In this document: one piece after another, positions 27,001-30,000 of the stretch
Numbering within the stretch: position 1 is the stretch's first letter
Layout: every line of letters starts with the position of its first letter
Assembly: GCF_988242995.1 (NCBI RefSeq)
Contig: NZ_OZ547043.1
Strand: one strand, 5' to 3'
DNA: 64,000 bases
Made by a program: the position numbers

Positions 27001-30000
27001 AAGAGAATCGCTGGAAAGGAAGATAGCCATAACGCCACAGTTAACCTTTGGAGGCGCGCAACTGGTTGATATCGATGCCAATCAACCGCTGGAACAAGTG
27101 CTGGTTGATGCGGAAAAAGCGATTACGGATTTTATGACCGCGCGTGGTTATCACTAGTCAAAAATGGAAATGCCCGATCGCCAGGACCGGGCATTTTCAG
27201 GAAGGTTAAATCAACTGCAATGCTATCCAGTACAACCCACCAGAAAGAAAAATCGCCGCCGGTAAAGTAAACACCCACGCCATCAGGATGCTGGTTACCG
27301 TTTTACGCTGTAACCCACCGCCGTCCACCACCATCGTCCCTGCTACCGCAGACGAGAGGACGTGTGTTGTGGAGACGGGCATCCCAATATAACTGGCAAG
27401 GCCGATAGACACTGCCGCCGTCATTTGTGCCGCCATGCCTTGCGCATACGTCATGCCGCGCTTACCAATCTTCTCACCGATGGTCATCGCTACACGACGC
27501 CAGCCAATCATGGTGCCAATGCCGAGCGCCAGTGCTACTGCCATGATGATCCACACCGGAGCGTACTCAATGGTGCTTAACATATCGCTGCGCAGTTTTT
27601 TCAGCAGGTTCTGGTCTTCTTTACTGACGCCTGGCAGTTTCGCCAGCTTCGCGGAGGTATCAGAGATGCACAGCATAATGCGGCGCAGCTGGCTGCGCTG
27701 ACTCACGCTTAACGGCTCGTAACTTTCCATATTGCCTGGCAGCATCGTTTTAACGCGCGCAATCGCATCAAAGGTATTTGCCGGATGACAGTGAAACTCC
27801 GTTACTTGCGTACCATCAGTCGATGCCGCAGGCAATGGAGGTTCCATCGCAATCAACTTCTGCGGCAGTTCAGGATGCTGTTGCAGGTAGTGTTCGAAGT
27901 TGGTGACGGCATCGCGGGTACGGGTAATTTCATAGCCGGACGCATTCATATTGACGACGAAACCAGCAGGGGCAATCCCCACCAGTACCAGCATCACCAG
28001 GCCGATCCCTTTCTGCCCGTCGTTAGCACCGTGCGAAAACGCCACGCCCGCAGCGGAAACAATCAGCGCAATACGCGTCCAGAATGGTGGCTTCCGTTTG
28101 CCTTTTTTCTTTTTGCGATCTTCCGGAATGCGGTGAATACGGTCACGCTTTTTCGTCCCGCTCCAGTAGCGGCGCAGCAGGAATATCAGGCCTCCCGCAA
28201 TGACCAGGCCGACGATAGGGGAAACAATCAGCGAGGAGAAAATTTTGGTCACTTCACGCAGGTTTAACGCATCCATCACCGATGAGCCGGTTAACAGCGC
28301 GTTGGTTAAACCGATGCCGATAATCGCACCAATCAAGGTATGCGAACTGGAGGCCGGTAAACCAAAGAACCACGTTCCCAGGTTCCAGATAATCGCCGCC
28401 AGCAGCATGGAAAAGACCATCGCCAGGCCGTGAGTTGACCCCATATTCAGCAACAAATCGGTTGGCAACATATGGACAATGGCATAGGCAACGCTAAGTC
28501 CGCCTAGCAATACGCCAAAAAAGTTAAAAAATGCCGCCATCACCACAGCAAGTTGTGGTTGCATGGCACGAGTATAAATAACGGTTGCCACCGCATTCGC
28601 CGTATCATGAAAACCATTGATTGCTTCGTAGAACAACACAAATGCCAGAGCAAGTAATAACAAAAGCCCCGTGAATATATCAAGGCCAACAAATAAATTT
28701 AGCATATATTAGATTACGCCATTTTGAATTTACGAACGGACGCATTATCAGTGACTTTAACGGCGTGGGCAAAGTGAAATATCATTTTTAAACGATAAAA
28801 AGAGTGTTATTTCTTGTGTATCAGATAATAAGCATTCATTCAAAACCTTTAGAAATAATCAAAACACAGGCATTCCACTGGTTAATACATTCACACATGA
28901 AATGAATAAATATTTGAATATATAAATATTGAATATTTTGATTAATCCCCGCACTGATTATTCTTCATAATCAGTGCGGGGTTGCTACAACATGTATTAC
29001 TCTTTCACCACAATTAACGGTTCAATATCACTCTCTTTTTTAATGACCAGTGATTCATCACCGCGCAAACACGTCCCACCGTAGTTGCCGCCAACGGTGA
29101 AGGTACATACCTGAATGTATTTACCGTCCACTTTCGGCAAACACCACAGTTGCTGATAGATGTTTTTCTGCTCGGCAAATTTACCGCTGGTTTTGTCCAG
29201 CACCTCTTCATGATGGCTGACGAGGTCGATGTTACTGCCACAGCGACCAGCGATCGGTTTCACTGCATAACCGGTTTTCACCAGTTCATCATTCACGGAG
29301 AAATCGGTATCCAGCAGGTAGCGATGGTGCGGGAACAGCGACCAGAGGATCGGCAGAATCGCTTTGTTGCCGGGGATCACCGTCCACAGCGGCTCAAAGA
29401 CCAGCACTTCCGGGCGCAGCAATACGTCGATAAGACGCACTTCATTTTGCGGATGACCGGTACGGATCGGCACCGCAGCAAACTCACGGTCGCTAACTTC
29501 ACGAATCTGATCAAACGCGGTTTCCCACGCCCAGGTTTTCCACACGCAGTTAACCAGTCGCCCTTCCCCATCAATCAGTTGCCCGGCAGCATCCCAGCCC
29601 AGTTCATCCAGCCCGCGCAAGATACGCGTTTCAAAGCCCGCCTGGTGCAGCGCCTGCTCCATAAACTGCGCGTGATAGTTTTCCTCGATATCTTTGTCCT
29701 GCATGATATGGACAAACGGACGTGCACGACTGTGTTTCCAGGCACCAGCCAGTTCGTTAATCAGCCCTTCCGCCGGATTGAAGCCGTTGCCTTTATAGCC
29801 CTGCTCCGCCCAACGTTCGAGGATCAAGCCCGCTTCGGTATGACAGGAGGCGGAATCGGCGTTGTATTCGTAGACCTTCAGGCCACGTTCGTCCATACAG
29901 AAATCCATACGACCGGTGATCATATGGTGACGGCGACGCTGCCAGGAGAGACGCAAACGTGGCCAGAGGATTTTTGGGATGTCGAACAGCGCCAGCAGGT

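What the first reader, a model, noticed from the sequence alone, without database searches (positions are those of the whole stretch)
28947..28981. Perfect 14-bp inverted repeat just downstream of gss
ccccgcactgatta / taatcagtgcgggg with a 7-nt loop is an unusually long perfect stem, but it lacks a clear U-tract. It lies in the AT-rich gss-pitB spacer, which is also the pitB upstream region, so it could be a terminator or a protein-binding palindrome.
Basis: seen in the sequence. Interest (0 to 1): 0.2.

Follow-up and report, generated by a model that had tools for sequence, protein, structure and literature searches.

The report
Stem-loop ending the gss mRNA
The palindrome is real, but it is an ordinary RNA hairpin marking the 3' end of the E. 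coli gss messenger RNA; a published K-12 transcript-end map already places the end 7 bases after it.

Summary
The inverted repeat is real and slightly larger than reported. It is a perfect 15-bp stem with a 5-nt loop (28947-28981) and is the longest perfect hairpin in the window. Both gss and pitB lie on the minus strand. The hairpin starts 15 nt after the gss stop codon and about 240 nt upstream of the pitB start.

It is single-copy in about 5,400 E. coli genomes and always sits at this locus, so it is not REP-like. No Rfam family matches it.

Natural variation points to an RNA structure on the gss-sense strand:
- The window allele and the K-12 allele differ by a compensatory C-G to U-A change.
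- The common one-sided variants give G·U wobbles in the sense RNA but A·C mismatches on the other strand.
- Citrobacter species keep a probably homologous hairpin with a different interior, even though they have no pitB.
- Nearly every enterobacterial gss gene is followed by a strong hairpin, with or without a U-tract.

Published RNAtag-seq/Term-seq tables (Bar et al. 2023) list a "primary" gss 3' terminus in K-12, 7 nt past this stem.

Best reading: this is the U-less 3'-terminal stem-loop of gss mRNA. It acts as an exonuclease barrier after Rho-type termination in the G-free spacer, as a weak intrinsic terminator, or both, and it insulates pitB. Ordinary; low interest.

The parts
28997..30856 (-). 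gss coding sequence (bifunctional glutathionylspermidine amidase/synthase); TAA stop codon at 28999-28997
   Evidence: ORF 28997..30859 (-). RefSeq genomes 95-99.5% identical annotate an 1860-nt gss here. 249 orthologous loci were confirmed by tblastn.
28967..28981 (-). 5' arm of the RNA hairpin on the gss-sense strand: CCCCGCACUGAUUAU
28962..28966 (-). Loop, GAAGA on the sense strand
   Evidence: One E. coli lineage has GAUGA.
28947..28961 (-). 3' arm of the RNA hairpin on the sense strand: AUAAUCAGUGCGGGG
28938..28947 (-). Projected position of the gss mRNA 3' end. The dominant end is the C at 28940, giving ...GGGGAUUAAUC-3', 7 nt after the stem.
   Evidence: The K-12 MG1655 'Primary' gss terminus is at 3136606, with a peak of 3136604-3136613, in Supplementary Data 2-4 of PMC10687069 (column legend). 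I transferred it to the window with an offset of 3,107,666, fixed by the gss stop codon. The tail sequence is identical in the window and in K-12. The position was measured in K-12, not in the window's strain.
28897..28946 (-). 50-nt G-free, A/U-rich, unstructured tract directly after the hairpin. It carries 5 UC dimers and two ~15-nt direct repeats. It is a candidate Rho loading region.
   Evidence: Composition; direct repeats D2 and D9. The role in Rho loading is an inference only.
28744..28772 (-). Only sigma-70-like site in the spacer that points toward pitB (TTGCCC, 17-nt spacer, GATAAT)
   Evidence: Consensus scan, 9 of 12 matches. This is not above the chance expectation and was not verified.
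27206..28705 (-). pitB coding sequence (low-affinity phosphate transporter), the downstream neighbour of gss in Escherichia only

Best explanation
The palindrome encodes the 3'-terminal stem-loop of the gss mRNA (minus strand).

Shown:
- The hairpin lies 15 nt after the gss stop codon.
- In E. coli K-12 the steady-state gss transcript ends 7 nt after the stem.
- The helix is maintained in evolution on the gss-sense strand.
- Hairpins of this kind follow gss throughout the Enterobacteriaceae, whatever gene comes next.

Inferred mechanism: the hairpin has no U-tract, so it most likely belongs to the class described by Dar & Sorek (2018). After the ribosome leaves at the stop codon, RNA polymerase runs into the untranslated, G-free, A/U-rich spacer. 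There it is stopped diffusely, most likely by Rho. PNPase and RNase II then trim the tail back to the very stable stem (-27 kcal/mol), which blocks them. This fixes a sharp 3' end and protects gss mRNA. A fraction of polymerases may also release directly at the hairpin, because the 7-nt tail AUUAAUC forms a weak hybrid.

Either way, the element ends the gss transcription unit and keeps the poorly expressed pitB from being read through from gss.

My confidence that it is the gss 3'-end RNA hairpin is about 0.9. The 0.55 given below is for the specific route of downstream termination followed by trimming.
For: Anatomy: perfect 15-bp stem, z about -10, longest in the window.

In vivo 3' end: a 'Primary' gss terminus at MG1655 3136606 (-) appears on three rows of the supplementary tables of PMC10687069. 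Two are RNAtag-seq sets. By sheet order, the third is probably the Dar & Sorek Term-seq data re-analysed. The authors' own fold shows this hairpin at -25.9 kcal/mol, with a longest U run of 3.

RNA-level constraint:
- The window and K-12 alleles differ by a two-sided C-G to U-A change.
- The frequent one-sided variants all give G·U in the sense RNA and A·C in the antisense: BL21 type in 460 genomes, O157 type in 552, C237 type in 45.
- Among 9 Escherichia alleles, 97.0% of cells pair on the sense strand and 93.3% on the antisense strand.
- The sense fold is the more stable in 11 of 12 alleles. In the three Citrobacter homologues it is 5-15 kcal/mol more stable, and they carry 1-5 G·U pairs.

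Association with gss, not pitB: pitB follows gss only in Escherichia. A strong hairpin follows the gss stop in nearly all of 77 orthologous loci, with a median offset of 10 nt. About 42 have a U-tract and about 35 do not.

Fit to the known class: Rho-dependent transcripts end just after stable stem-loops that lack U-tracts, and these protect against PNPase and RNase II, with rut sites immediately downstream (PMC6061677).

Other support: there are 50 G-free nt with 5 UC dimers after the stem. There is no canonical terminator anywhere else in the spacer. pitB is reported as normally non-functional or poorly expressed (PMC6469041).
Against: I could obtain no direct test of Rho dependence for this site.
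- gss and pitB are absent from the bicyclomycin-defined Rho regions and from the curated 3' ends of Adams et al. 2021. That may simply reflect low expression.
- The Dar & Sorek per-gene table is not held.
- The downstream tract is G-free but has only 12-14% C, so it is not a textbook C-rich rut site.
- A 3' end at +7 is also what intrinsic termination would give.

The strand asymmetry is modest. Two alleles carry C·A mismatches in the sense RNA: D8 type in 42 genomes and CT02 in 1. The shuffle control for the Escherichia alignment is only 10 of 500.

The 3' end was measured in K-12, not in the window's lineage.
Confidence: 0.55

Rival explanations
1. Non-canonical intrinsic terminator. The exceptionally stable 15-bp hairpin, together with the weak A/U hybrid of the tail AUUAAUC, is enough for RNA polymerase to release at +7 without Rho. 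The mapped 3' end is then the true termination point.
For: The 3' end lies 7 nt after the stem, the usual release distance. The first six tail nucleotides are all A or U. The probably homologous Citrobacter hairpins have more U-rich tails (UUUUAAC, UUAUUUGAU, UUGUAUGUG), and about 42 of 77 gss orthologues end in canonical hairpin-plus-U-tract terminators. The ancestral element was therefore plausibly intrinsic. Dar & Sorek themselves suggest that U-poor hairpins may be inefficient intrinsic terminators backed up by Rho.
Against: Only 3 U in the 8-9 nt after the stem, and the base next to the stem is an A. The consensus scan does not call it a terminator. U-less termini in the same published tables also end about 6-7 nt after their stems, so the position does not discriminate. 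In Citrobacter a canonical terminator follows about 40 nt later, which suggests the first hairpin alone leaks.
Confidence: 0.3
2. Relic with no present function. The hairpin is a leftover of an ancestral terminator. Its perfection is maintained by intrastrand template-switch (quasi-palindrome) mutation rather than by selection, and the mapped 3' end is a passive consequence of any stable stem.
For: Template switching in hairpins produces exactly this kind of two-sided 'compensatory' change in one step (established knowledge, recalled, not tested here). Sequence turnover at this position is fast between genera. A mismatch allele persists in 42 genomes, and one strain carries IS1 inside the hairpin.
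Against: The helix is retained from Escherichia to Citrobacter with several two-sided changes and many sense-strand-only G·U pairs. Template switching would not favour one strand. Some strong hairpin is present after gss in nearly all 77 loci examined. Even a 'passive' exonuclease block is a functional effect on the mRNA.
Confidence: 0.1
3. DNA palindrome bound by a dimeric regulator that controls pitB (or gss).
For: It is a perfect, symmetric 15-bp repeat in the pitB upstream region. pitB regulation is poorly understood, and PhoB does not bind there (PMC10294691).
Against: Half-site sequence is not conserved, only the pairing. The common variants break DNA symmetry but keep RNA pairing on one strand. 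The hairpin is present next to gss in Citrobacter, where pitB is absent. It lies about 175 bp upstream of the only promoter-like site for pitB and 1.9 kb from the gss promoter side. A 5-bp spacer with 15-bp arms resembles no operator family I could recall (memory only).
Confidence: 0.03
4. A copy of a dispersed repeat (REP/BIME-like or MITE end) with no specific relation to gss.
For: Some other genera do have REP-like GCCGGATAAGGCG hairpins after gss (L041, L050 and L075).
Against: There is no other copy in the window, even allowing 3 mismatches. There is one place per genome in about 5,400 E. coli genomes, always between gss and pitB. The few 'second places' for the window-type query are best explained as the palindrome matching its own reverse strand (my calculation, not a tool result), because they vanish with the other queries.
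Confidence: 0.01

Closest known systems
3'-terminal protective stem-loops of Rho-dependent transcripts (Dar & Sorek 2018, Nucleic Acids Res 46:6797, PMC6061677)
   Same: A stable stem-loop just after the stop codon with no U-tract and no upstream A-tract. A sharp steady-state 3' end a few nt after the stem. A G-poor sequence directly downstream.
   Different: Rho dependence and PNPase/RNase II trimming have not been shown for this site. The downstream tract is G-free but A/U-rich rather than C-rich. The stem is unusually long and perfect: 15 bp, with only 8 G-C pairs.
Canonical intrinsic (Rho-independent) terminators
   Same: Position after the stop codon, hairpin energy, and a 3' end 7 nt after the stem. 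Many gss orthologues in other genera carry a canonical terminator in the same place.
   Different: The tail has 3 U in 8-9 nt and starts with A. There is no A-tract upstream. Consensus rules do not call it a terminator.
The gss 'primary 3' terminus' entry in the TRS tables (Bar, Argaman, Eldar & Margalit 2023, Nat Commun 14:7843, PMC10687069)
   Same: It is the same site in K-12. The table prints this hairpin (K-12 allele, U-A at pair 6) and a 58-nt 3' UTR.
   Different: The window carries the minority C-G allele at pair 6. The paper lists the site but does not discuss it or its mechanism.
REP/BIME extragenic palindromes
   Same: An extragenic palindrome that can act as an exonuclease barrier at mRNA 3' ends.
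   Different: It is single-copy, has no REP consensus, and is not G+C-rich in the inner stem.

Membership tests
Canonical intrinsic terminator | Stable G+C-containing stem-loop shortly after the stop codon | tested here: met
   15 bp with 8 G-C pairs, -26.8 kcal/mol, 15 nt after TAA
Canonical intrinsic terminator | U-rich tract (about 5 or more U in the 8 nt after the stem) | tested here: not met
   The tail is AUUAAUCAA, with 3 U. The scan did not call it.
Canonical intrinsic terminator | RNA 3' end 7-9 nt after the stem in vivo | tested here: met
   The K-12 terminus is at +7 (PMC10687069 tables). This is published data for K-12, transferred to the window by homology.
Canonical intrinsic terminator | Factor-independent release in vitro | not testable with these tools
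   Needs in vitro transcription.
Protective 3' stem-loop of a Rho-dependent transcript (Dar & Sorek class) | Stable stem-loop without a U-tract at the steady-state 3' end | tested here: met
.
Protective 3' stem-loop of a Rho-dependent transcript (Dar & Sorek class) | C-over-G, unstructured rut-like region directly downstream | tested here: inconclusive
   The first 50 nt have 0 G, 7 C and 5 UC dimers, but C is only 12-14% and the tract is mainly A/U.
Protective 3' stem-loop of a Rho-dependent transcript (Dar & Sorek class) | Read-through when Rho is inhibited (bicyclomycin) | tested here: inconclusive
   No gss or pitB entry among the Rho regions of Adams et al. 2021. Expression may be too low. 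The Dar & Sorek and Peters tables are not held.
Protective 3' stem-loop of a Rho-dependent transcript (Dar & Sorek class) | Longer tails in pnp or rnb mutants | not testable with these tools
   Needs RNA-seq of exonuclease mutants at this locus.
Functional RNA helix (any class) | Pairing kept through sequence change, on one strand | tested here: met
   There is a C-G to U-A change within E. coli. Between Escherichia and Citrobacter there are A-U to G-C changes at pairs 7 and 11 and a U-A to C-G change at pair 12. G·U pairs occur on the sense strand only. Pairing is 97.0% on the sense strand and 93.3% on the antisense. The sense fold is more stable in 11 of 12 alleles. The strength is moderate: few independent events, and two sense-mismatch alleles exist.
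REP/BIME or other dispersed repeat | Many copies per genome | tested here: not met
   One copy per genome, always at gss-pitB.
Palindromic operator of a dimeric transcription factor | Conserved half-site sequence at a fixed position relative to a promoter | tested here: not met
   The interior of the arms differs between genera while pairing is kept. The hairpin is about 175 bp from the nearest promoter-like site. It is present where pitB is absent.
Any Rfam family | Score at or above the family's gathering threshold | tested here: not met
   The best hit is rli38 at 36.4 bits against a threshold of 49. All hits are below threshold and are driven by the hairpin alone.

The most novel reading that the evidence does not exclude
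The gss 3' end may be a natural, datable case of a terminator changing type.

In Citrobacter the probably homologous hairpin has a partly U-rich tail. It is followed within about 40 nt by a canonical bidirectional terminator shared with the convergent tRNA-Phe gene (pheV). In Escherichia homology stops exactly at the base of the stem. About 26 kb of pheV-linked DNA, ending in pitB and its AT-rich upstream region, now follows the stem.

The rearrangement would have stripped the hairpin of its U-rich tail and its back-up terminator. That would convert an intrinsic terminator into a U-less hairpin that depends on Rho and exonuclease trimming. The helix itself would then have stayed under selection, seen as compensatory and wobble-only changes, including lengthening to 15 perfect pairs.
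Probability: 0.3. Interest if true: 0.3.

Novelty: already known. Interest (0 to 1): 0.1.

Why it matters
It matters little beyond good annotation. It marks the end of the gss transcription unit, gives gss a 58-nt 3' UTR, and helps explain why pitB is not co-transcribed with gss even though the spacer has no canonical terminator.

It is a clean textbook-style example of two points:
- A long perfect palindrome in an intergenic region is more often an mRNA 3'-end hairpin than an operator.
- The strand of action can be read from G·U versus A·C variants in population data.

The comparison across genera also illustrates how fast terminator type turns over at one orthologous gene end.

Tried and rejected
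- REP-like distribution: searched the window with up to 3 mismatches and 5,426 E. coli genomes. Single copy, so rejected.
- Rfam at permissive E-values: only sub-threshold hits caused by the hairpin itself.
- Consensus promoter/terminator scan: the hairpin is not called. Two terminator-like sites lie inside pitB and are near chance level. The promoter-like sites are at chance level.
- Small ORFs in the spacer: only 20-36 aa ORFs of AT-rich junk composition; not pursued.
- Published evidence on Rho dependence: Adams 2021 has no entry for gss or pitB. TERMITe 2025 has no entry. The Dar & Sorek 2018 and Nadiras 2018 supplements are not held. The 72-terminator set in J Biol Chem 2022 has no entry. 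Peters 2012, Harris 2001 and Hoffer 2001 are not held.
- PhoB operator idea for pitB: PhoB shows no binding or regulation at pitB, and PhoB sites are direct repeats, not palindromes.
- RNase III substrate: considered and set aside, because 15 bp is shorter than the roughly two helical turns such sites usually need (recalled knowledge, not tested).
- Plus-strand terminator: no plus-strand gene reads into the hairpin, and the plus-strand variants give A·C mismatches.
- My first automatic hairpin classifier let A-tracts pair with U-tracts and so under-counted U-tracts. It was replaced by a G-C-core rule.
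Full report
**1. The observation**

The sequence at 28947-28981 reads CCCCGCACTGATTAT-TCTTC-ATAATCAGTGCGGGG. 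The repeat finder gives 15-nt arms that are 100% complementary, with 5 nt between them.

As RNA the 35-mer folds at -26.8 kcal/mol on the minus strand and -25.4 on the plus strand. The z-score is about -10, and none of 200 dinucleotide shuffles does as well. A scan of the whole window for perfect stems with 3-10 nt loops ranks it first. It has 15 bp and the next has 12 bp (3261-3291). Thirty first-order Markov shuffles of the window never reached 15.

**2. Context**

Both neighbouring genes are on the minus strand: gss at 28997-30859 and pitB at 27206-28705. Their identities come from the RefSeq annotation of genomes that match this stretch at 95-99.5% identity.

Read on the coding strand, the order is:
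- gss stop codon (TAA, 28999-28997)
- 15 nt
- hairpin (28981-28947)
- tail AUUAAUCAAAAU...
- a 241-nt spacer
- pitB ATG (28705)

The spacer is 31% G+C, against 52-53% for the genes. There is no U-tract on either strand, and the consensus scan finds no terminator-like site in the spacer. The only minus-strand sigma-70-like match (TTGCCC-17-GATAAT, 28772-28744) is about 175 bp downstream of the hairpin and is no better than chance.

The window is not K-12. Its closest matches are a minority lineage such as strain 118UI.

**3. Not a repeated element and not a known RNA family**

The arm sequence occurs nowhere else in the window, even allowing 3 mismatches. In 5,426 complete E. coli genomes the hairpin region is found in 5,402, at a median of one place per genome, always between pitB and gss.

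The roughly 150 'second places' seen only with the window-type query are best explained as the perfect palindrome matching its own reverse strand. That is my calculation, not a tool result. They disappear with the other queries.

Rfam gives nothing at gathering score.

**4. Variation says RNA, on the gss-sense strand**

Exact-match counts of a 43-nt query, together with a 63-nt and a 51-nt query, give the following allele frequencies. Pairs are numbered from the base of the stem.

| Allele | Difference from K-12 type | Genomes |
|---|---|---|
| K-12 type | none | ~4,000 |
| O157 type | U·G at pairs 1 and 12 | 552 |
| BL21 type | G·U at pair 10 | 460 |
| Window type | C-G instead of U-A at pair 6 | ~115 |
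| C237 type | U·G at pair 2, plus a loop change | 45 |
| D8 type | window type plus C·A at pair 4 | 42 |
| CT02 | BL21 type plus C·A at pair 2 | 1 |

- The window and K-12 alleles differ by a change on both arms that keeps a perfect helix.
- All three frequent one-sided alleles are wobble pairs in the gss-sense RNA. On the other strand, or in a DNA cruciform, they would be A·C mismatches.
- The two alleles that mismatch in the sense RNA are rare.
- E. albertii adds another sense U·G at pair 9, and an Escherichia sp. (MOD1-EC7003) shares the pair-1 U·G.

On nine distinct Escherichia alleles, 97.0% of cells pair on the sense strand (five pairs vary on one side only while staying paired). On the antisense strand 93.3% pair (two such pairs, five pairs broken).

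This asymmetry is real but modest. The shuffle control is 10 of 500, and I cannot count independent events without a tree.

The between-genus comparison strengthens it. Three Citrobacter species carry, at the same distance from the gss stop, a hairpin with the same outer stem (CCCCG...CGGGG) but a different interior. I read these as probably homologous; that is my inference. Relative to E. coli the differences are:
- A-U to G-C at pairs 7 and 11
- U-A to C-G at pair 12
- 1-5 G·U pairs

Their sense folds are 5.5 to 15 kcal/mol more stable than the antisense folds. Overall the sense fold is the more stable in 11 of 12 alleles.

A dimeric-operator model predicts conserved half-sites and symmetric constraint. 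What is seen is the opposite.

**5. The hairpin belongs to gss, not to pitB**

Of 80 loci encoding close Gss orthologues, pitB follows gss only in the two Escherichia loci. Yet nearly every locus has a strong hairpin within a few tens of nt of the gss stop (median offset 10 nt, median about -25 kcal/mol).

By a G-C-core rule, about 42 of 77 are followed by at least 5 U in 8 nt, the canonical intrinsic pattern. Typical examples are AAAAAGCCCCCGCAGGG...CUGCGGGGGCUUUUU in Enterobacter and GCCGGAG...CUCCGGCUUUUUU in several Citrobacter. About 35 of 77 are U-less, including all Escherichia, Klebsiella and Raoultella. A 3' hairpin is thus a constant of the gss gene, and its type turns over.

**6. 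Direct experimental evidence already in the literature**

The supplementary tables of Bar, Argaman, Eldar & Margalit (Nat Commun 2023, PMC10687069) list a 'Primary' 3' terminus for gss in MG1655. It lies on the minus strand at 3136606, with a peak of 3136604-3136613. The tables also give:
- adjusted p-values down to 0
- a signal of 0.91-0.97 in the two RNAtag-seq sets
- a 58-nt 3' UTR
- a longest U run of 3
- the authors' own fold of exactly this hairpin (K-12 allele, -25.9 kcal/mol)

A third row (signal 0.67) is in the second sheet of Supplementary Data 2. By the sheet order in Supplementary Data 1, this is the Dar & Sorek Term-seq data re-analysed. That assignment is my inference.

The gss stop codon fixes the offset between MG1655 and the window at 3,107,666. 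The terminus therefore maps to window 28940. The RNA ends ...GGGGAUUAAUC-3', 7 nt after the stem, and the tail sequence is identical in the window and in K-12.

The site is absent from the curated 3' ends and from the bicyclomycin-defined Rho regions of Adams et al. 2021 and from the TERMITe tables. gss is weakly expressed, so absence there is uninformative.

**7. Mechanism**

Shown: the hairpin sits at the steady-state 3' end of gss mRNA and is maintained as an RNA helix.

Inferred: how the end is made.

[quoted passage not shown] These stem-loops are energetically like terminator hairpins but lack U-tracts and upstream A-tracts. They block PNPase and RNase II after diffuse termination further downstream, and rut sites lie immediately downstream.

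The gss hairpin fits that description. The 50 nt after it contain no G at all, 7 C and five UC dimers, and are unstructured. They are untranslated, because the ribosome has left 15 nt before the stem. This is a plausible place for Rho to load, although the tract is A/U-rich rather than C-rich.

The alternative is direct, inefficient intrinsic release at +7 over a weak all-A/U hybrid. I cannot exclude it. Other U-less termini in the same tables also end 6-7 nt after their stems, so the position does not decide between the two. Dar & Sorek themselves propose mixed cases.

I put about 0.55 on downstream termination plus trimming as the main route, and about 0.3 on mainly intrinsic termination. 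Most of the remaining ~0.15 goes to a functionless relic kept perfect by hairpin-templated mutation; the operator and dispersed-repeat readings share about 0.04.

In all the functional versions the consequence is the same: a protected gss 3' end and insulation of pitB. pitB is reported to be normally non-functional in wild-type K-12 and is not a PhoB target.

**8. Evolutionary side-light**

In Citrobacter werkmanii the gss hairpin is followed about 40 nt later by a canonical bidirectional terminator. A convergent tRNA-Phe gene follows, 110 nt after the gss stop. Two other Citrobacter have tRNA-Phe 3'-end-like fragments there.

In K-12 the tRNA-Phe gene (pheV) lies 26 kb away. The genes in between are the T2SS-beta cluster, sslE, the glc operon, yghO-T and pitB. 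Similarity between Escherichia and Citrobacter stops at the base of the stem.

So the hairpin lies at the edge of a pheV-linked variable segment. Its partly U-rich Citrobacter tails (UUUUAAC, UUAUUUGAU, UUGUAUGUG) are replaced in Escherichia by the AT-rich pitB upstream region. This suggests, but does not prove, a switch from an intrinsic terminator to a U-less hairpin.

**9. Comparison, novelty and verdict**

The element works like the Dar & Sorek class of 3' protective stem-loops, or like a weak intrinsic terminator. It fails the U-tract criterion of the canonical intrinsic family. It also fails the copy-number criterion of REP elements and the half-site and position criteria of an operator.

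The site itself is already catalogued, with its fold, as the gss primary 3' terminus in K-12. What this analysis adds is the strand-specific covariation, the allele frequencies and the cross-genus picture.

It is an ordinary feature. Interest 0.1.

Noticed in passing
L004 340-460 (E. coli 360D-1, NZ_CM180504.1); corresponds to window ~28954: The end of an IS1 element (...GGAGTCATTACC) abuts CTGATTAT inside the hairpin arm nearest pitB. The outer 7 bp of the stem and the pitB side are displaced, making this a natural knock-out of the hairpin.
   Followed up: partly
L012 4860-5045 (Citrobacter werkmanii); L009 and L013 ~4940-4990; L087 5726-5801 (K-12): In Citrobacter a convergent tRNA-Phe gene, or tRNA-Phe 3'-end-like fragments, lies about 110 nt after the gss stop, behind a canonical bidirectional terminator. 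In K-12 pheV is 26 kb away, with the T2SS-beta cluster, sslE, the glc operon, yghO-T and pitB in between. The gss hairpin therefore marks the edge of a pheV-linked variable segment.
   Followed up: partly
window 28897-28946 (minus strand): A 50-nt tract directly after the hairpin contains no G at all. It includes two ~15-nt direct repeats (AUAUUCAAUAUUUAU / AUAUUCAAAUAUUUAU) that carry regularly spaced UC dimers. It could be a Rho loading site, a protein site for pitB, or just AT-rich DNA.
   Followed up: partly
L003 1-166 (E. coli O157:H7 17B6-2): In this O157:H7 genome pitB is annotated as a pseudogene (incomplete, missing the C-terminus). This fits reports that pitB is dispensable or cryptic.
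   Followed up: no
window 28650-29050: The window is not K-12. This stretch is only 96.5% identical to K-12 and at least 99% identical to just 117 of 5,414 genomes (for example the uropathogenic strain 118UI). Its hairpin allele (C-G at pair 6) is a minority allele.
   Followed up: partly
window 3261-3291, 39031-39056, 53276-53302, 42835-42863, 15080-15105, 13733-13762: These are the other perfect 11-12-bp hairpins in the window, for example AAGCCGGATGATATTAACGATCATCCGGCTT and TCGCTATATATTGTCATATATAGCGA. They are probably terminators or operators of other genes and were not examined.
   Followed up: no
L041, L050, L075 (Kluyvera spp. and an unnamed Enterobacteriaceae bacterium), first ~70 nt after the gss stop: In these genera the hairpin after gss is a REP-like element (TAGGCCGGATAAGGCG...GCCGCCATCCGGC). 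The same gene end is served by three different kinds of hairpin across the family.
   Followed up: no
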